Positions 17,953-23,127 of a stretch of 64,000 bases of DNA are shown here, one piece after another. The notes beneath the pieces are model-generated. The model did no database searches, had not been told where the DNA came from, and saw only the letters and a list, made by a program, of their open reading frames with translations. The position numbers were made by a program, and so were the translations under genes. The first letter of the stretch is position 1, and each line of letters begins with the position of its first letter. The DNA comes from a virus (taxonomy: Duplodnaviria > Heunggongvirae > Uroviricota > Caudoviricetes): the IMG/VR virus record IMGVR_UViG_3300025000_000056, one strand, 5' to 3'.

Positions 17953-17977
17953 CTTAAATAACTTAGGAGGTGGATTT

Positions 17978-18379
17978 GTGTTAATCGAACGTATTGTTGA
18001 TAACAAACGTTTCAAAGTTGAAATTGACTTTAAAGAAATTAAGAGTCATATTGCTGAGGCTGCTGAAGAGTACAGCGATCATCCTGGAGGTGATATAGAA
18101 TTACCATTAGCTAATTATCACCCTCAGTGTGCAGAAGCTCTAGCTATTATCAACGCTATCGAAGAGAATAATGATTTAGCCATCGAGCTGATTATAAACA
18201 CTGCCAAGAAAAAGAACGGCTGGTTCCGTAAGGGCGCTGTCTATTATCATCGAACATATGGTGATTTATCGTATGAATCACAGGATGAATACGGTTCTCG
18301 TACGTATGCCTTTCGTTGTAAGGCTCATGATGATGATCTCATAGAACTTACATTCGAGACTTATGTTGAAAAATGGTAA
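17978..18379 (+). CDS. hypothetical protein (133 aa)
   Basis: GTG start 7 nt after AGGAGG. The tracked ORF from 17909 only translates the preceding hairpin. Confidence 0.5.
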   Translation: MLIERIVDNKRFKVEIDFKEIKSHIAEAAEEYSDHPGGDIELPLANYHPQCAEALAIINAIEENNDLAIELIINTAKKKNGWFRKGAVYYHRTYGDLSYESQDEYGSRTYAFRCKAHDDDLIELTFETYVEKW

Positions 18380-18591
18380 ATGAGAAATGTCCAAATGAAT
18401 GCTCTTCTTTTACCCAAGCGACACTAAATAACATCACGATCCTTATCGATAGTAAAGTATTTCATCCAACGGGATGGAGTTGCTTACGATGTGGTCATTT
18501 TATAGCAACTTCTCCTAGAGAGGTCTATCCAGTGCCAATTATTAAACCTAAGAGGTTATCATGGTTTGCTAGATTGTTTAGACGATCTTAG
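18373..18591 (+). CDS. hypothetical small protein (CPNEC..CLRCGH)
   Basis: ORF track; weak RBS. Confidence 0.3.
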   Translation: MVNEKCPNECSSFTQATLNNITILIDSKVFHPTGWSCLRCGHFIATSPREVYPVPIIKPKRLSWFARLFRRS

Positions 18592-18704
18592 TGATGATAT
18601 CCTCACTAAATAGAATATCAGAGCCATTACCCTTTATGGTTTAAGGAGTCATTACCCCACTCCTTATCTGGTATTCTCCTTAGTGAGGAAACTCACTGAA
18701 TTAT

Positions 18705-19161
18705 GGGCCCGAGTTAGTTTCGACAGGGTGAATAGAGTATGTCCTCTGAGATGACAGTCGGAAAGACGACATTAAAGCAAATGCTACACCTATGAAAAAC
18801 GCTGCCTAATTTTAATTAATTAGGAACTACAGCCCTAAAACGGAGAGTACCCAACGACTCCTGAAGGTCGAAGACTGGGTAGTTAATAGTGGCGAAGTTG
18901 GCATACGCACGCTTGAAATAAAGCGAGGTCAAAGAATTAACTATGGCTGCATGCAAATGTGGAAGACGAAAGTCCCGTGCGGGTTCGAGTCCCGTCTATT
19001 AACGCATGTTTCCTGCATCGTATAATGCAGGTGGTGGAGGCGAGGGTTTAATAAGCGCTGGTTGCAATTCCAGTAGGTTAGACACTCAGATTTCTCAGTA
19101 GTAACAGGGACAAAGGGTAGACATTCTGGACACGGGGGGCGGCTCCCCGTCGGGTCCGCCA
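18705..19161 (+). ncRNA. ssrA: tmRNA-like gene (ssrA-like)
   Basis: 5' end gggcccgagttagtTTCGACAGGG matches the tmRNA tRNA-like domain consensus. Internal tag frame gca aat gct aca cct atg aaa aac GCT GCC TAA (ANATPMKNAA-stop) matches the Bacillus-type GCTGCCTAA tag end. 3' end cgggtcc-g-CCA is complementary to 5' gggcccg over 7 bp. Confidence 0.55.
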
Positions 19162-19170
19162 GCTAATTTT

Positions 19171-19363
19171 GCGGATATAGCTCAATGGTAGAGCGGCTAT
19201 CGAGAGATAGCGGTTAATTACGGAGTTATATAAACCATGTTGATCACATGAATAAAGTAATTCTTTGGAGATTAACTGTATAAGTGAGGAGTATGTGATT
19301 AGTCCGGACGAAAGCATATAAGTAGCTTATATACGGTTGGGGGTTCGAGCCCTTCTATCCGCT
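19171..19363 (+). ncRNA. tRNA-like element (TLE family, GAGA tetraloop arm) interrupted by a 123-nt insertion flanked by a 5-bp direct repeat CGGTT
   Basis: 5' part gcggata-ta-gctc-aatggta-gagc-g-gctatc-gaga-gatagc-ggtt (19171-19215). 3' part ggggg-ttcgagc-ccttc-tatccgc (19339-19362), with a perfect 7-bp acceptor. Joined pieces give 69 nt. CGGTT occurs at 19211-15 and 19334-38. Confidence 0.5.
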
Positions 19364-19379
19364 ACAATATTATTCTCAT

Positions 19380-19460
19380 GCGGGGTATAGTTTAGTGGTT
19401 TAAAACGAGCGAAGGAAGTTTATGATCGCTATCAGGGGTTCGAATCCCTTTGCCCTGCCC
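19380..19460 (+). tRNA. tRNA-like gene with encoded CCA and an expanded 13-nt anticodon loop AGGAAGTTTATGA
   Basis: Acceptor gcggggt/gccctgc (with G-U pairs); D-arm gttt-agtggttt-aaac; stem agcga/tcgct closed by a 13-nt loop; T-arm agggg-ttcgaat-ccctt; CCA at 19458-60. Confidence 0.45.
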
Positions 19461-19667
19461 AATCATCTGGAAGGTCTTGGTGACAGAGAAATATGTTAGA
19501 TGCGTCAGACATCAGTATTAAACTCTTGCAGTTCAATTCTGCACTTCCGCGATCATTTGTTAGTTTTGATTATATAGGTACTCTGTAGCCTGTAGTAATT
19601 GCAGGACAATGAGCTAAGTTGAGCTTAAATAACTCAAGCCTATATGATCTTAATTTGCTTACATAGC

Positions 19668-19695
19668 GTCTCTTCGAGGCGTTTTGTATATAGCC
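19668..19695 (+). terminator. imperfect hairpin GCGTCTC-TTCG-AGGCG followed by TTTTG
   Basis: Shares the TTACATAGCGTCTCT sequence with the hairpin at 20782. Confidence 0.4.
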
Positions 19696-19747
19696 TGATG
19701 GCTTATTAAATATTATCTAGTTGTAAAGAATATGAGGAGGAAAAGAA

Positions 19748-20767
19748 ATGAAAATCGTAACCGAAAACAACACGAAGAAGGAAATCTTATCTGCTTATTC
19801 CGAGGCCTTGGAATTGTTAAAAGCTAGTGAAGGTATCATAGTTGATCCAGCCAAAGAAATGTCCATGAAAAAAGCCGGAGAGACTTTGACTAAAGCCACT
19901 GAAACTGTTGGTCTTAATGTTGAAGACCAAATTGCAAAATTGCAGAAGAGTGTCGCCAGCATACTTGGTAATTTAGCGAATAGTTTTACGGAAGAAATTA
20001 AAACATTCAATGATTTACAAGAAGCAATCGCCCTCAAAGAATCCGAACTGAAAGAGCTGTTTGACATTGAAAAAGAAGCGTTCGCCTTAACTGCGTTGGT
20101 CAATGCAAATAGGGAAACCAAAGATAAGTTTAAGGCTGCTTTCGATGAAGACAAAGCAAGAATGCAGGCTGAACTTGATCAATTAAAAGCTGATTTGAAG
20201 GCTGAAAAAGCTGCTCATTTGAATGAAACCTATCTGCAAGACGAAGAAGTTAAACGGAAACGTGCCAGGGATCAAGAAGAATACACGTACGACTTCGCAA
20301 GGAAGAAGCAACTTGACGATAACGATTGGGAAGATGAGAAAAAGGTACGTGAAAAACAGTTATCGGAACTTGAAAGTGAAGTCAAAACAAGACTTGAACT
20401 GGTAACAACAAGGGAAGAAACGATTGACGACCTTAAGGCTAAAGTGGAAGAAATTCCGCAATTAGTTGACGCTGCCAGAAAAGCTGGAGAAGCTGAAGGC
20501 GAAAAGAAAGCTGGAACAAGTTTCGGATTTGAAAAGAGAGCAATCGAATCCAAGACAACTTCTGAAAAGACGATACTTGAAAATAAGGTTGCCATGCTAG
20601 AGGCTCAGCTCAATAAAGCGAATGACGAATTAACGAGACTAAATGAAGATTTGAAAACTGCATATAGCAAAATTCAGGAAACCGCTACGGCAGCTATCGA
20701 ATCTCAAGCCAATTCGCGAATGGTTAATAGTCTTGAGGCCTTAGTGAAAGATAAAACTCAGAAGTAA
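19748..20767 (+). CDS. coiled-coil protein (339 aa), embedded in the RNA-gene cluster
   Basis: GAGGAGG RBS; Lys/Glu-rich heptad-like composition throughout. Confidence 0.55.
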   Translation: MKIVTENNTKKEILSAYSEALELLKASEGIIVDPAKEMSMKKAGETLTKATETVGLNVEDQIAKLQKSVASILGNLANSFTEEIKTFNDLQEAIALKESELKELFDIEKEAFALTALVNANRETKDKFKAAFDEDKARMQAELDQLKADLKAEKAAHLNETYLQDEEVKRKRARDQEEYTYDFARKKQLDDNDWEDEKKVREKQLSELESEVKTRLELVTTREETIDDLKAKVEEIPQLVDAARKAGEAEGEKKAGTSFGFEKRAIESKTTSEKTILENKVAMLEAQLNKANDELTRLNEDLKTAYSKIQETATAAIESQANSRMVNSLEALVKDKTQK

Positions 20768-20781
20768 AGATTTAATCGTTA

Positions 20782-20815
20782 CATAGCGTCTCTCAAGAGA
20801 GACGCTATGTAAATT
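20782..20815 (+). terminator. perfect hairpin ACATAGCGTCTCT-CAAGA-GAGACGCTATGT
   Basis: 13-bp inverted repeat immediately after the stop codon. Confidence 0.5.
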
Positions 20816-20833
20816 ATTTCAACGTATTACATG

Positions 20834-20907
20834 ATTCTATTGGTGTACGGACGCACGCCCTGCTACCAGGCAGTGAAGGGCGAGTTCGATTCTCGCAACA
20901 GAATCCA
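20834..20907 (+). tRNA. tRNA-like gene with encoded CCA; anticodon arm not canonical by eye
   Basis: Acceptor ttctatt/aacagaa (6 of 7 bp); D-stem gtgt/gcac; T-arm gcgag-ttcgatt-ctcgc; CCA at 20905-07. Confidence 0.4.
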
Positions 20908-20911
20908 TCAT

Positions 20912-20985
20912 GGCCGGATAGTGTAAGGAAGCACGCGCTACTCTTCATAGCGAAGGGAGAGTTCAATTCTCTCAGACGGCTGCCA
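20912..20985 (+). tRNA. tRNA-Lys(CUU)-like with encoded CCA
   Basis: D-arm gtgt-aaggaa-gcac; anticodon arm cgcta-CTCTTCA-tagcg; T-arm gagag-ttcaatt-ctctc; acceptor only partly paired (ggccgga / agacggc). Confidence 0.5.
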
Positions 20986-21113
20986 TTGTTATCTTTAGTT
21001 AAGATTTATCTTAACTATTAATTTTAGATGGAAAGCCCCTAAAATAGACGTAGAGATAAGTGGCGAAGGGGACGGGAGCGATATGATATGGTGAGTCGTT
21101 CCAAGCAATTATC

Positions 21114-21233
21114 ACCGAGGTACCCAAGTGGTTAGGGAGCGTATCCGGCGCGCCTCTCCGCTGTAAAGAGATGTAATCTTCTATGGGGAGCGGTAAACGT
21201 AATAGGCGGGTTCAAATCCCGTCCTCGGTGCCA
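21114..21233 (+). tRNA. 120-nt tRNA-like gene (type-II-like 3-bp D-stem) with about 40-50 extra nucleotides; encoded CCA
   Basis: Acceptor accgagg/cctcggt (perfect 7 bp); D-arm ccc-aagtggtta-ggg; T-arm gcggg-ttcaaat-cccgt; CCA at 21231-33; internal palindrome GGCGCGCC. Confidence 0.45.
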
Positions 21234-21258
21234 TATTAATTAAGAGGAGGAAGGATTT

Positions 21259-21501
21259 ATGAGAAACACGTCGGGTGCTAATTGTATTGAAGAAGCAGAG
21301 GTTCAGTTTGTCGAAGTCAATGTTCCAGTTCTTGCTCAGGTGATCTACTCTGGTAATAGAACCGTCGTCATTTTGCCAGACGGCTCTAAGGGGATTGCCA
21401 AATGTTGTTTTGAAGATGTCTTCAATAAAAAGATAGGTCACGAGTTAGCTCTTGGAAGAGCTATTGCAACTAGGGACGGCAAAAGGTATCATAAAGCTTA
21501 A
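21259..21501 (+). CDS. hypothetical protein (80 aa) between tRNA-like genes
   Basis: ORF track; GAGGAGG RBS. Confidence 0.45.
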   Translation: MRNTSGANCIEEAEVQFVEVNVPVLAQVIYSGNRTVVILPDGSKGIAKCCFEDVFNKKIGHELALGRAIATRDGKRYHKA

Positions 21502-21516
21502 ACTTATTATTCTCAT

Positions 21517-21677
21517 GGCGAGGTGGCCGAGCGGTTGAAGGCGCTAGTCAAGGGATACGATAGTTAAAGGTCTAGACGGAGGAAGTTTATGATCGTCAAA
21601 ACTATTTCCCAGCAACCGGTACTGAGCTCTAAACTATCTACGAGTGATGTTCGAAAGTTCGAATCTTTCCCTTGCCG
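21517..21677 (+). tRNA. 161-nt tRNA-like gene: Ser/Leu/Tyr-type 5' half and canonical T-arm/acceptor separated by about 75 extra nucleotides
   Basis: Acceptor ggcgagg/ccttgcc (7 bp with one G-U); D-arm gcc-gagcggttgaa-ggc; T-arm gaaag-ttcgaat-ctttc; internal hairpin gacgg-AGGAAGTTTATGA-tcgtc. Confidence 0.45.
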
Positions 21678-21701
21678 ACGTAATTAAAGGAGATGATTTT
21701 A

Positions 21702-21866
21702 TTGATCGTTAAATGCGATATCGTTAAGTGTGATTTTAATTACAGTGGCTTCTGTCGTGCTAACGTTCTTGAAATTGTACCTAATCATATACTTATGCCT
21801 GGTGACCCAGGTTATTTTGAGTACATTACGTGTTCAACGTATGTAAAGTTGGAACATCATGATTAA
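21702..21866 (+). CDS. small Cys-containing protein (54 aa)
   Basis: TTG start 10 nt after AAGGAG; below the ORF-track size cutoff. Confidence 0.35.
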   Translation: MIVKCDIVKCDFNYSGFCRANVLEIVPNHILMPGDPGYFEYITCSTYVKLEHHD

Positions 21867-22008
21867 AGACGAGCAAGCTGAAGCCGAAATATTTCCTGAA
21901 TTTGTGAGAGAACTCATAGGCGATTATCCTAGTGTCTATGATATGAAGAAGGGTCGCTTTCTTAGTAAAGAGGAAGTAATCCGAAAAATGAATAGAGAGG
22001 AGGAATAA
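21859..22008 (+). CDS. small hypothetical protein (49 aa)
   Basis: ATG overlaps the upstream stop; below the ORF-track size cutoff. Confidence 0.3.
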   Translation: MIKDEQAEAEIFPEFVRELIGDYPSVYDMKKGRFLSKEEVIRKMNREEE

Positions 22009-22010
22009 AC

Positions 22011-22265
22011 ATGGATCGTAATCTAATGGCTGAACTTGATGATATTATCAATAAGGGAGTAGCAATTGCCGAAGTAAACCGGCAAACTATGAGTACTATT
22101 AAAGAGTTTCAAAATGCGCTCATGGAATTCTCTAAGGAAAACGACATTCCTAAATTAGTTGCTGAAATTATGGAAAAACATCCAGAAAAACGCCCGGAAC
22201 TACAAAAGATTGTTCTGGCGTTTCATTGCGAAGGAAAACGCGTTGAAGATTCACTAATTCGTTAA
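22011..22265 (+). CDS. hypothetical protein
   Basis: ORF track; GAGGAGG RBS. Confidence 0.5.
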   Translation: MDRNLMAELDDIINKGVAIAEVNRQTMSTIKEFQNALMEFSKENDIPKLVAEIMEKHPEKRPELQKIVLAFHCEGKRVEDSLIR

Positions 22266-22273
22266 TTAACATG

Positions 22274-22440
22274 GTGATCGTATTTCAATCGGTAGAAGCT
22301 GTCTTGCAGAAAGCTGATAGTCAGGAGGAACGTGATAGGATCGCTACCTAACATGGCTTGACATGACGGTTGTGAAAGCAATACGTACTTTAAGAAGACC
22401 TGTGGCAGAGTTGCGAGTTCAATTCTCGTCGATCACCCCA
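22274..22440 (+). tRNA. 167-nt tRNA-like gene with encoded CCA and about 90 extra internal nucleotides
   Basis: Acceptor gtgatcg/cgatcac (perfect 7 bp); D-arm tttc-aatcggta-gaag; T-arm gcgag-ttcaatt-ctcgt; CCA at 22438-40; insert contains aggaggaacgtgataggatcgcta, related to the 13-nt loop motif. Confidence 0.45.
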
Positions 22441-22462
22441 ATTAAATCCAAGGAGGTTATCA

Positions 22463-22762
22463 ATGATTACAGCCGGTATAATTATTAACATCATACTACT
22501 GATCATAACTATTGTTGCAGGCATTTGGATGATGGTGGAAGATGCTTTAAATCCTGATAACATTCTTGATTTATTCAAGAATGTTATTAAGGTCAAGCAT
22601 CTTCTATTCTTATTAGTTCCAGGTGTCTTAATCGGTATTTTCTTACTCAAAGCTGGTATTACATTCGTCTTAAGCTTTGAACAAGATGACGATGATGATG
22701 AGCCAGATTCAGTTTGGAATAAACCTATATCACTTCGTAAGAGATACGTAGACGAGGAGTGA
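22463..22762 (+). CDS. membrane protein with acidic tail
   Basis: ORF track; AAGGAGG RBS; hydrophobic N-terminal two-thirds. Confidence 0.5.
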   Translation: MITAGIIINIILLIITIVAGIWMMVEDALNPDNILDLFKNVIKVKHLLFLLVPGVLIGIFLLKAGITFVLSFEQDDDDDEPDSVWNKPISLRKRYVDEE

Positions 22763-22986
22763 TTTGTATGATGCGAAATCTACTTAAGATCTTTGCTAAA
22801 AATACACTTAAGGCAACGATACTTTATTGTCCTTTTTGTGCGAGTCCTAAAACAAAATATCACGGACTAGTACAAAAAGACGGTAAGAATAGTAAAACTG
22901 ATAATTATTCAATTACTTGTCTTGCCTGTGGAGCCTCTGGTAATGTTCAAGAAGTTTGGCTTAAAGCGCCAGAAAAAGCTCTATAA
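22759..22986 (+). CDS. zinc-ribbon protein (CPFC...CLAC)
   Basis: ORF track. Confidence 0.45.
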   Translation: MICMMRNLLKIFAKNTLKATILYCPFCASPKTKYHGLVQKDGKNSKTDNYSITCLACGASGNVQEVWLKAPEKAL

Positions 22987-23127
22987 TAACTACATGAGGG
23001 TTGGCAGGTGCCAGGATACGTTAGGTCTACGCAGTTCAAGTCTGCCGAGAGCGGGGAAGTTTATGCCGTTTGGTTAACCTTGATGGTTCGATACCATCAA
23101 ACCCTCACTATATTCAAGGAGGCTGTT

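What the first reader, a model, noticed from the sequence alone, without database searches (positions are those of the whole stretch)
18705..19161. Phage-encoded tmRNA-like gene with an unusual tag (ANATPMKNAA)
The 5' end gggcccgagttagTTTCGACAGGG has the same length and conserved TTCGACAGGG core as the bacterial tmRNA tRNA-like domain. An internal frame ends ...AAA AAC GCT GCC TAA, matching the Bacillus-type GCUGCCUAA tag terminus. The 3' end cgggtcc-G-CCA pairs with the 5' gggcccg over 7 bp (one G-U). No ORF covers the region. The predicted tag ends NAA rather than LAA, which would be a weaker ClpXP degron, and the RNA would be about 457 nt, longer than typical. tmRNA genes are rare in phages and are reported mostly in very large phages.
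Basis: partly seen in the sequence, partly recalled or inferred. Interest (0 to 1): 0.6.

Follow-up and report, generated by a model that had tools for sequence, protein, structure and literature searches.

The report
Divergent phage tmRNA with embedded tRNA-like module
This large groundwater phage carries a real but unusual ribosome-rescue RNA (tmRNA) gene that standard detectors miss, because it uses a rare version of the tRNA-like elbow and has a 122-base tRNA-shaped module inserted in a dispensable region.

Summary
ARAGORN and the Rfam tmRNA model (RF00023) do not call it.

It is nevertheless a tmRNA homologue. A profile of 9 standard tmRNAs gives its two best window hits at the candidate's 5' and 3' ends. 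Rfam's permuted-tmRNA model matches both halves (27.6 and 23.8 bits). Every helix shared with the tmRNAs of Bacillus phage G and three uncultured phages is present, collinear and fully paired, with compensatory changes.

The odd T loop (GGCGGCU) is not decay. In 45 tmRNAs fetched here, D-loop GG goes with T loop xUC. D-loop AG goes with xGC, the type in Rfam's alphaproteobacterial consensus. This RNA has AG plus GGC.

The extra length is a 122-nt tRNA-like module (18882-19003) inserted at the PK2/PK3 junction. Without it the RNA is about 336 nt, against 309-434 in the family.

Other deviations are discriminator G73, an extra T-arm pair and the tag ANATPMKNAA.

The most likely function is alanine-charged ribosome rescue. 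That is inferred, because no close relative, expression data or SmpB gene was found.

It is a new variant of a known kind.

The parts
18705..19161 (+). Whole tmRNA (ssrA-like) gene, 457 nt including the encoded CCA
   Evidence: Sequence read. nhmmer hits at both ends. RF04321 hits on both halves. Collinear helices shared with the phage-G-like tmRNAs.
18705..18711 (+). Acceptor stem, 5' strand GGGCCCG (G3 of the G3:U70 pair at 18707)
   Evidence: Pairs with 19151-19157 over 7 bp with one G-U at position 3. The MFE fold keeps it.
18712..18724 (+). D-loop analogue AGUUAG-UUUCGAC. It has AG (18716-18717) where most tmRNAs have GG.
   Evidence: D-loop AG co-varies with T loops of type xGC in 13 of 13 AG cases, and GG with xUC in 31 of 31.
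18724..18730 (+). Helix 2a, 5' strand CAGGGUG
   Evidence: Pairs with CAUUCUG at 19122-19128. The same helix is present in phage G, L002, L083 and L084 and in the MFE fold.
18777..18809 (+). Tag reading frame: GCA resume codon through UAA, encoding ANATPMKNAA* (ARAGORN's alternative start gives ATPMKNAA*)
   Evidence: The RF04321 alignment places GCAAAUGCU on the consensus GCaAACGAu and GCUGCCUAA on GCuGCcUAA.
18805..18824 (+). Helix 5: hairpin CCUAAUU/AAUUAGG that contains the stop codon
   Evidence: 7 of 7 pairs. The equivalent stop-codon hairpin is present in all four relatives with different sequences.
18842..18880 (+). Pseudoknot PK2: S1 GGAG/CUCC (18842-18845 with 18858-18861), S2 ACCCA/UGGGU (18849-18853 with 18876-18880)
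   Evidence: The strands cross in the order S1-S2-S1'-S2', as in phage G, L002 and L083. Both stems are kept through compensatory changes.
18882..19003 (+). Embedded tRNA-like module in the PK3 position. It has an 8-bp terminal stem GUUAAUAG/CUAUUAAC, U8, a D-arm-like GCG-AAGUUGGCAUA-CGC, a hairpin with a 6-nt loop, about 50 extra nt, and a canonical T arm GCGGG-UUCGAGU-CCCGU (18979-18995).
   Evidence: Sequence read. RF00023 local hit on the T arm. ARAGORN cloverleaf only at a lowered threshold with an intron allowed. Terminal stem kept in the full-length MFE fold. Removing 18883-19003 gives a 336-nt RNA inside the family range. The distance from UUCGACAGGG to GUGGUGGA is 302 nt, against 171 and 193 in phage G and L002.
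19008..19039 (+). Conserved 3' element: GUUU + hairpin CCUGCAU/AUGCAGG + UGGUGGAG
   Evidence: The same arrangement occurs in phage G, L083 and L084, and in L002 with UGGUGGAU. The hairpin stems co-vary.
19122..19131 (+). Helix 2a 3' strand CAUUCUG, followed by the conserved GAC (the UCUGGAC motif spans the junction)
19132..19150 (+). T arm: stem ACGGG/CCCGU with loop G-GGCGGCU-C. Read either as a 6-bp stem with a 7-nt loop or a 5-bp stem with a 9-nt loop.
   Evidence: Aligned by Rfam to the alpha_tmRNA consensus CCGGG-GGCgGUA-CCCGG. Belongs to the T-loop class xGC.
19151..19161 (+). Acceptor stem 3' strand CGGGUCC, discriminator G (19158), encoded CCA (19159-19161)
   Evidence: All 45 comparison tmRNAs have discriminator A.

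Best explanation
This is a standard-order tmRNA (ssrA) gene of a large (about 220 kb) groundwater phage that is distantly related to Bacillus phage G.

The proposed mechanism has four steps, all inferred.
1. The RNA is transcribed with the tRNA-like genes that follow it. Its 5' end at G18705 is cut by RNase P.
2. Its acceptor stem (G3:U70, CCA) is charged with alanine by the host AlaRS.
3. With SmpB and EF-Tu it enters stalled ribosomes.
4. Translation resumes on GCA at 18777 and adds the tag ANATPMKNAA.

Its tRNA-like elbow is the rare AG/GGC variant otherwise typical of alphaproteobacterial two-piece tmRNAs. The dispensable PK3 position holds a 122-nt tRNA-shaped module.

Shown here: homology, collinear and fully paired helices, and the matched D-loop/T-loop class. 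Inferred: charging, SmpB binding, tagging and processing.
For: 1. Homology to tmRNA.
- An nhmmer profile of 9 standard tmRNAs hits 18717-18810 (E = 4.3e-4, best in the window) and 19111-19136 (second best).
- RF04321 hits 18690-18809 (27.6 bits) and 19097-19175 (23.8 bits).

2. Membership of the phage-G-like group. The neighbouring gene 19748-20767 is 37% identical to phage G gp268. Phage G's tmRNA scores 67.6 bits in Rfam.

3. Shared structure. P1, P2a, H5, both PK2 stems, the hairpin plus UGGUGGAG and the T stem are all present in the same order. They have 0 mismatches in this RNA and different but complementary sequences in phage G, L002, L083 and L084.

4. The T loop is a known alternative.
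- The Rfam alpha_tmRNA consensus loop is GGCgGUA.
- D-loop GG with T loop xUC occurs in 31 of 31 tmRNAs, and AG with xGC in 13 of 13 (Fisher p = 6e-12). This RNA has AG plus GGC.
- The literature reports G at these T-loop positions in Caulobacter and in Reclinomonas mitochondrial tmRNA, and a possible sixth T-stem pair in Dehalococcoides (PMC1168896).

5. Non-detection is explained. ARAGORN calls a tmRNA at its default threshold only when the module is deleted and the T arm and discriminator are also replaced with canonical sequence.

6. The insertion site is tolerant. PK2-PK4 can be replaced in E. coli (PMC3968760), and L084 also has about 60 extra nt at the same junction.
Against: - Neither ARAGORN at default settings nor RF00023 at its gathering score detects it.
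- The discriminator is G, whereas all 45 comparison tmRNAs have A. A73 contributes to AlaRS recognition (PMC3968760).
- The T arm has one extra G-C pair, so the acceptor/T stack is 13 bp instead of 12.
- I could not define a convincing PK1. The stretch before the tag folds as a hairpin.
- No SmpB gene is among the ORFs of 150 aa or more in the window.
- No close relative was found that would test conservation of the unusual features.
- There are no expression data.
Confidence: 0.62

Rival explanations
1. The gene yields a two-piece tmRNA from a gene in standard order. The embedded tRNA-like module (18882-19003) would be recognised by RNase P and RNase Z and cut out. That would leave a coding piece (about 18705-18881) and an acceptor piece (about 19004-19161), held together by the acceptor stem and helix 2. 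Known two-piece tmRNAs look like this but arise from circularly permuted genes.
For: - The module has tRNA topology. Its T arm abuts the 3' strand of an 8-bp terminal stem, U8 follows the 5' strand, and the D-arm-like segment carries GG.
- The elbow is the AG/GGC type, which in my sample occurs only in two-piece (permuted) tmRNAs.
- Permuted transcripts are cleaved by tRNA-processing enzymes, and one permuted tmRNA carries an intact tRNA-Ala in its intervening sequence (PMC11915505).
- A break in the PK2-PK4 region is tolerated in natural two-piece tmRNAs (PMC3968760).
Against: - The module is not a good tRNA. The Rfam tRNA model does not report it, and ARAGORN reports it only at a lowered threshold with a forced intron.
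- It has a 6-nt 'anticodon' loop and about 50 extra nt.
- There is no evidence of cleavage.
- It may be only a structural replacement for PK3.
Confidence: 0.2
2. The RNA is a tmRNA-derived mimic that interferes with host trans-translation instead of carrying it out. It would bind SmpB, AlaRS or ribosomes unproductively, because G73 and the 13-bp acceptor/T stack impair charging or EF-Tu delivery.
For: [quoted passage not shown]
- Discriminator G and the extra T-arm pair deviate from all 45 comparison tmRNAs.
Against: A complete tag frame, the stop-codon hairpin and PK2 are all retained intact. A pure decoy would not need them. The matched D-loop/T-loop pair argues for a working elbow.
Confidence: 0.08
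3. It is a recently inactivated tmRNA pseudogene, disrupted by the insertion and by changes in the tRNA-like domain.
For: It fails the standard detectors. It has G73, a non-standard T arm and a 122-nt insertion. Many neighbouring tRNA-like genes are also aberrant.
Against: - There are 0 mismatches in about 40 checked base pairs.
- The D-loop and T-loop changes are the co-varying pair seen in functional lineages, not random hits.
- The insertion lies in the one region known to tolerate replacement.
- The tag frame is intact and the CCA is kept.
Confidence: 0.08
4. The resemblance is due to chance and there is no RNA gene here.
For: RF00023 and ARAGORN are both negative.
Against: Independent significant matches occur at both ends, in the correct order and orientation. 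Seven collinear helices are shared with four phage tmRNAs.
Confidence: 0.02

Closest known systems
tmRNA of Bacillus phage G (JN638751 412060-412368, gp553) and the related uncultured-phage tmRNAs L002, L083 and L084 (IMG/VR)
   Same: - Standard gene order and location in a tRNA gene cluster.
- UUCGACAGGG followed by an A-rich AUAG stretch.
- A stop codon inside helix 5.
- PK2 with the same crossing stems.
- GUUU + hairpin + UGGUGGAG, then UCUGGAC before the T arm.
- Similar core length (336 nt without the insert, against 309-434).
   Different: All four relatives have D-loop GG, a T loop of UUCGAYU or UUCAAUU, and discriminator A, and are called by ARAGORN. Phage G's also passes Rfam. None carries a tRNA-like module. 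Their tags differ (phage G AKLNITNNELQVA; L002 AKPYRLAA).
Alphaproteobacterial-type two-piece (permuted) tmRNAs (Rfam RF01849 and RF04321), such as Caulobacter crescentus
   Same: D-loop AG paired with a T loop of type xGC (consensus GGCgGUA). The 5' stretch UAGUUUCGACAGGG-AAUAG is very similar. The tag begins with AN and ends with GCUGCCUAA.
   Different: Those genes are circularly permuted and lack most of PK2-PK4. This gene is in standard order and keeps PK2 and the 3' element. Their T stem is 5 bp and their discriminator is A.
Permuted tmRNA with an intact tRNA-Ala gene inside its intervening sequence (GCA-2688965 sp002688965.2; PMC11915505)
   Same: A tRNA-shaped element nested inside a tmRNA gene, in a part that is not needed in the mature RNA.
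   Different: That element is a high-scoring tRNA, and it lies in a segment already removed by processing. This module is an aberrant tRNA-like fold inside a standard-order gene.
Intron-form tmRNA genes (group I intron in the T-psi-C loop; PMC11915505)
   Same: A tmRNA gene interrupted by extra sequence and therefore missed by standard tools.
   Different: The insertion here is at the PK2/PK3 junction, not in the T loop. It is 122 nt long and has no match to a group I intron model.

Membership tests
tmRNA (SsrA), standard form | 5' and 3' ends form a 7-bp acceptor stem carrying the G3:U70 alanine identity pair | tested here: met
   GGGCCCG/CGGGUCC, 7 of 7 pairs, with G-U at position 3.
tmRNA (SsrA), standard form | Discriminator A73 followed by CCA | tested here: not met
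   CCA is encoded (19159-19161), but the discriminator is G (19158). All 45 comparison tmRNAs have A.
tmRNA (SsrA), standard form | Stem-less D-loop analogue with UUCGAC, and GAC/GGAC flanking helix 2a | tested here: met
   AGUUAGUUUCGAC at 18712-18724, UCUGGAC at 19125-19131, and helix 2a CAGGGUG/CAUUCUG.
tmRNA (SsrA), standard form | T arm whose loop matches the D loop (elbow interaction needed for SmpB) | tested here: met
   Met in the alternative form: D-loop AG with T loop GGCGGCU (class xGC). The covariation is 31 of 31 for GG/xUC and 13 of 13 for AG/xGC. One extra G-C pair in the arm is atypical.
tmRNA (SsrA), standard form | Internal tag frame without a start codon or SD, resuming on an Ala codon, ending in AA-stop, with the stop inside helix 5 | tested here: met
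   GCA...GCU GCC UAA at 18777-18809. The stop lies within CCUAAUU/AAUUAGG.
tmRNA (SsrA), standard form | Pseudoknot PK1 between helix 2 and the tag | tested here: inconclusive
   Only nested hairpins (GAUG..CAUU, GUC-GGAAA-GAC) were found by eye at 18749-18772. PK1 is clear in L002 and L084 by my own reading of their sequences. A hairpin can substitute for PK1 in E. coli (PMC3968760).
tmRNA (SsrA), standard form | Downstream pseudoknots (PK2-PK4) | tested here: met
   PK2 has two crossing stems. The 3' hairpin plus UGGUGGAG is conserved. The PK3 position is occupied by the tRNA-like module.
tmRNA (SsrA), standard form | Passes the curated detectors (Rfam RF00023 at 47 bits or more; ARAGORN at default settings) | tested here: not met
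   No RF00023 hit other than an 11-bit local match to the inner T arm. ARAGORN is negative. RF04321 reaches 27.6 and 23.8 bits on the two halves, against a threshold of 47.
tmRNA (SsrA), standard form | Works with SmpB, is charged by AlaRS and tags proteins | not testable with these tools
   No SmpB among the window ORFs of 150 aa or more. The rest of the roughly 220-kb genome could not be read.
Permuted (two-piece) tmRNA gene | The acceptor piece (T arm, 3' acceptor strand, CCA) is encoded upstream of the coding piece | tested here: not met
   The order is standard. The RF04321 coding-piece match (18690-18809) lies upstream of the acceptor-piece match (19097-19175).
Intron-form tmRNA gene | Group I intron in the T-psi-C loop | tested here: not met
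   The T loop is 7-9 nt. No group I intron match appears in the Rfam searches.
tRNA (for the embedded module 18882-19003) | Cloverleaf with a 7-nt anticodon loop, scoring above the Rfam tRNA threshold | tested here: not met
   The acceptor-like stem, D-arm-like segment and canonical T arm are present. However, the 'anticodon' loop is 6 nt, about 50 nt are extra, there is no RF00005 hit, and ARAGORN calls it only at -ps92 with an intron.

The most novel reading that the evidence does not exclude
A fourth tmRNA gene form. This would be a standard-order gene 'punctuated' by an internal tRNA-like module, which tRNA-processing enzymes cut out. The product would be a two-piece tmRNA made without circular permutation of the gene. 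It would carry the same AG/GGC elbow seen in the permuted two-piece lineages.
Probability: 0.2. Interest if true: 0.7.

Novelty: new variant of a known kind. Interest (0 to 1): 0.5.

Why it matters
- It shows that phage tmRNA genes can escape both ARAGORN and the Rfam standard model. Surveys of huge phages that rely on ARAGORN (for example PMC7162821) may therefore undercount them.
- It combines features thought to belong to different tmRNA lineages: standard gene order, phage-G-like pseudoknots and an alphaproteobacterial-type elbow.
- It places a tRNA-shaped module inside a tmRNA. If that module is a processing signal, it would be a new route to two-piece tmRNA.
- The perfect D-loop/T-loop covariation seen here (GG/xUC against AG/xGC) is a simple rule. 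It could be added to detectors and used to judge whether an odd T loop is functional.

Tried and rejected
1. Degenerate T loop or pseudogene. This was my working reading. I dropped it when the narrow Rfam search aligned the loop to the alpha_tmRNA consensus GGCgGUA and the 45-sequence table showed the matching D-loop change.

2. Permuted tmRNA. Low-threshold ARAGORN calls and the first RF04321 hit suggested it. I rejected it because the two halves are in standard order.

3. The inner T arm (18979-18995) as the true tmRNA T arm. Rejected because it is followed by CUAUUAAC, which pairs with 18882-18889 and not with the 5' end of the gene.

4. Group I intron. Rfam gives no match.

5. Protein-coding explanation. 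The overlapping minus-strand ORFs have no family match.

6. Search for close relatives. All of these failed.
   - No similar DNA among GenBank phages.
   - No viral-contig hit for the 5' 19-mer or for the T-arm pattern; the four matches were random coding DNA.
   - The metagenome scan returned ordinary bacterial tmRNAs and one non-tmRNA match.
   - My genome contigs pattern was too loose. It returned 120 or more matches, none overlapping an ARAGORN tmRNA call. That scan was wasted.
   - The nearest relatives by the neighbouring protein (54% identity, L071 and L072) are not syntenic and carry a Y-RNA-like element instead.

7. MAFFT plus RNAalifold on five family members aligned only the ends, so I checked the helices by hand and by script.

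8. Promoter scan: no enrichment over shuffled sequence.

Full report
**Observation.**
- The 5' end is GGGCCCG-AGUUAG-UUUCGAC-AGGG.
- An internal frame, GCA AAU GCU ACA CCU AUG AAA AAC GCU GCC UAA, occupies 18777-18809.
- The 3' end, CGGGUCC-G-CCA, pairs with the 5' end over 7 bp with G3:U70.
- No credible gene overlaps the region. All window genes are on the + strand. The two overlapping minus-strand ORFs have no Pfam or PHROG match. The gene caller of the source contig calls nothing between 18380 and 19747.

**Standard detectors fail.** ARAGORN at default settings finds no tmRNA. Rfam at gathering thresholds finds only two weak tRNAs in the window. In E-value mode RF00023 matches only an internal T arm (11 bits), and RF04321 (permuted tmRNA) gives 21.8 bits on the 5' part.

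**Context.** The window is phage DNA. It encodes RecJ, an ATP-dependent ligase, a Pol III alpha subunit, RecA, UvrD, an anti-repressor and ThyX. It comes from a groundwater metagenome contig of about 220 kb that was recovered as an identical sequence in many samples. The downstream gene 19748-20767 is 37% identical to gp268 of Bacillus phage G. Phage G carries an annotated tmRNA inside a tRNA cluster (PMC12484599), and that tmRNA scores 67.6 bits in Rfam.

**Homology to tmRNA.**
This covers profile positions 13-116, from the 5' tRNA-like half through the tag stop.
- Its second-best hit is at 19111-19136, the UGGAC region, collinear with the first.
- A narrow Rfam search shows RF04321 matching both halves. 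The coding piece matches at 18690-18809 (27.6 bits, E = 8e-4). The acceptor piece matches at 19097-19175 (23.8 bits, E = 6e-3). The two are in standard order, not permuted order.

**A phage-G-like tmRNA group.** Pattern scans of viral contigs recovered L002, L083 and L084, which with phage G share a characteristic architecture. A scripted check shows that this RNA has every shared helix, in the same order and fully paired:

| Element | In this RNA |
|---|---|
| P1 (acceptor) | GGGCCCG/CGGGUCC |
| P2a | CAGGGUG/CAUUCUG |
| Stop-codon hairpin H5 | CCUAAUU/AAUUAGG |
| PK2 stem S1 | GGAG/CUCC |
| PK2 stem S2 | ACCCA/UGGGU |
| 3' element | GUUU + hairpin CCUGCAU/AUGCAGG + UGGUGGAG |
| T stem | ACGGG/CCCGU |

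The PK2 strands cross in the order 138/145/154/172. The relatives have different but complementary sequences at the same places, for example PK2 S1 AAUAGA/UCUAUU in phage G and AGCAGA/UCUGCU in L083. This pattern of compensatory change with no mismatches argues against chance and against neutral decay.

**Why it is long.** The distance from UUCGACAGGG to GUGGUGGA is 302 nt here, against 171 in phage G and 193 in L002. The excess is a discrete 122-nt segment, 18882-19003, inserted exactly between the end of PK2 and the GUUU-hairpin element.
- Deleting 18883-19003 gives 336 nt, inside the family range of 309-434.
- The segment is tRNA-shaped. It has an 8-bp terminal stem (GUUAAUAG/CUAUUAAC), U8, a D-arm-like GCG-AAGUUGGCAUA-CGC, a hairpin with a 6-nt loop, about 50 extra nt including a GAAA-capped hairpin, and a canonical T arm GCGGG-UUCGAGU-CCCGU that abuts the 3' strand of the terminal stem.
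- It is not a good tRNA. There is no RF00005 hit, and ARAGORN calls it only at a lowered threshold with a forced intron.
- L084 also carries about 60 extra nt at the same junction.
- PK2-PK4 are replaceable in E. coli (PMC3968760), so this is a tolerant site.

**The T loop.** I first read GGCGGCU as degenerate, because ARAGORN needs both the module deleted and the T arm and discriminator replaced before it calls a tmRNA. That reading was wrong.
- Rfam aligns the arm to the alphaproteobacterial consensus CCGGG-GGCgGUA-CCCGG.
- Among 45 distinct tmRNAs fetched here, D-loop GG always goes with T loop xUC (31 of 31) and D-loop AG always with xGC (13 of 13). One further loop with an ambiguous D-loop alignment (GU) is also xGC. 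Fisher's exact test gives p = 6e-12, although the sequences are not phylogenetically independent.
- This RNA has AG (18716-18717) together with G-G-C, so it carries the matched alternative elbow.
- The literature reports G at these T-loop positions in Caulobacter and in Reclinomonas mitochondrial tmRNA, and a possible sixth T-stem pair in Dehalococcoides (PMC1168896).
- In my sample this elbow class occurs only in permuted (two-piece) genes, so finding it in a standard-order gene is unusual.

**Remaining deviations.**
- The discriminator is G, whereas it is A in all 45 comparison sequences.
- One extra G-C pair in the T arm gives a 13-bp acceptor/T stack.
- I could not define a clear PK1.
- The tag ends in NAA.
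- No SmpB gene is present among ORFs of 150 aa or more in the window.
- No close relative was found in GenBank phages, IMG/VR or the metagenome collection, so conservation of the unusual features could not be tested.

**Mechanism.** The most likely function is that of a working tmRNA. It would be processed at 18705 by RNase P together with the tRNA-like genes that follow 10 nt downstream. It would then be charged with alanine through G3:U70, delivered with SmpB, and resume translation at GCA 18777 to add ANATPMKNAA. A terminator-like hairpin at 19665-19683 could end the transcription unit. All functional steps are inferred.

**Rivals.**
- The module is cut out by tRNA-processing enzymes, giving a two-piece tmRNA from a non-permuted gene. 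This is plausible given the two-piece-type elbow and the reported case of a tRNA-Ala nested in a permuted tmRNA (PMC11915505).
- The RNA is a decoy that interferes with host trans-translation, as reported for the phage DS6A variant (PMC11915505).
- The gene is a recent pseudogene.
- The resemblance is chance, which is effectively excluded.

**Verdict.** This is a genuine tmRNA homologue and a new variant of a known kind. It is interesting mainly because it is invisible to standard tools, mixes lineage-specific features and nests a tRNA-like module inside the gene.

Noticed in passing
window 16835-23110 (+): 16841-16909, 16905-16973, 19171-19367, 19381-19458, 20835-20907, 20912-20985, 21114-21233, 21516-21690, 22274-22440, 22998-23106: A string of tRNA-like genes have good acceptor stems, D arms and canonical T arms but aberrant anticodon regions. 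These include a GUAA tetraloop, 6-nt and 8-nt loops, a 13-nt loop, and insertions of 26-116 nt at or near the anticodon loop. Only two reach the Rfam tRNA threshold (40.4 and 30.4 bits). No group I intron model matches. Relatives L071 and L072 carry normal tRNAs scoring 60-67 bits at the equivalent place.
   Followed up: partly
window 16555-16565, 19414-19424, 21581-21591, 23055-23065 (+): The 11-mer GGAAGUUUAUG occurs exactly four times (chance expectation 1.2 even when one mismatch is allowed). Each copy is the loop of a hairpin, and each hairpin has a different, complementary stem: CACAAGA/UCUUGUG, AGCGA/UCGCU, GACGG/UCGUC and AGCGG/CCGUU. Three of the four sit in the anticodon-arm position of tRNA-like elements. 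The loop looks like a Shine-Dalgarno sequence plus AUG presented in a loop. It may be a protein-binding or ribosome-binding operator motif. Its function is unknown.
   Followed up: partly
window 15900-16480 (+): About 600 nt of degenerate G-rich repeats (GGTAAAGTAGGGTA-like units, 9 and 7 copies in two families) show strong GC skew and no ORF, just upstream of the RNA gene cluster.
   Followed up: no
window 17590-17616, 17631-17658, 17682-17706, 17802-17827 (+): Four hairpins share an internal ...GUUGAAA... motif between complementary, co-varying stems (for example GGCGUU...AACGCC and GGUGUU...ACACC). Rfam gives only a weak CRISPR-DR8 hit on the opposite strand nearby, at 17516-17549. This may be a repeated structured RNA motif.
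   Followed up: no
L071:3469-3581, L072:294-418, L069 (phage G):26180-26289: Sub-threshold Y-RNA-like (YrlA, RF02553) matches of 31-36 bits lie immediately upstream of the gp268-like gene in the two nearest relatives. A further 24-bit match lies in phage G's tRNA cluster, and phage G also encodes a TROVE (Ro-like) protein, gp540. The window has no such element at the equivalent place (19455-19750).
   Followed up: partly
window 19659-19683 and 20779-20812 (+): The 339-aa gene is bracketed by two terminator-like hairpins that share the 15-mer TTACATAGCGTCTCT. The downstream one has a perfect 15-bp stem.
   Followed up: no
window 17906-17956: A near-perfect palindromic hairpin (GGTTTCTCCACCCTTC...GAAGGGTGGAGAAA) produces spurious 31-bit matches to the mir-5681 model on both strands. 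It lies at the start of ORF 17909-18379.
   Followed up: no
loci L002-L085 (45 distinct tmRNAs): There is a perfect covariation between the tmRNA D-loop dinucleotide and T-loop positions 2-3: GG with UC in 31 of 31, and AG with GC in 13 of 13. All AG/GC cases are permuted genes. This could serve as a general rule for judging unusual T loops.
   Followed up: yes
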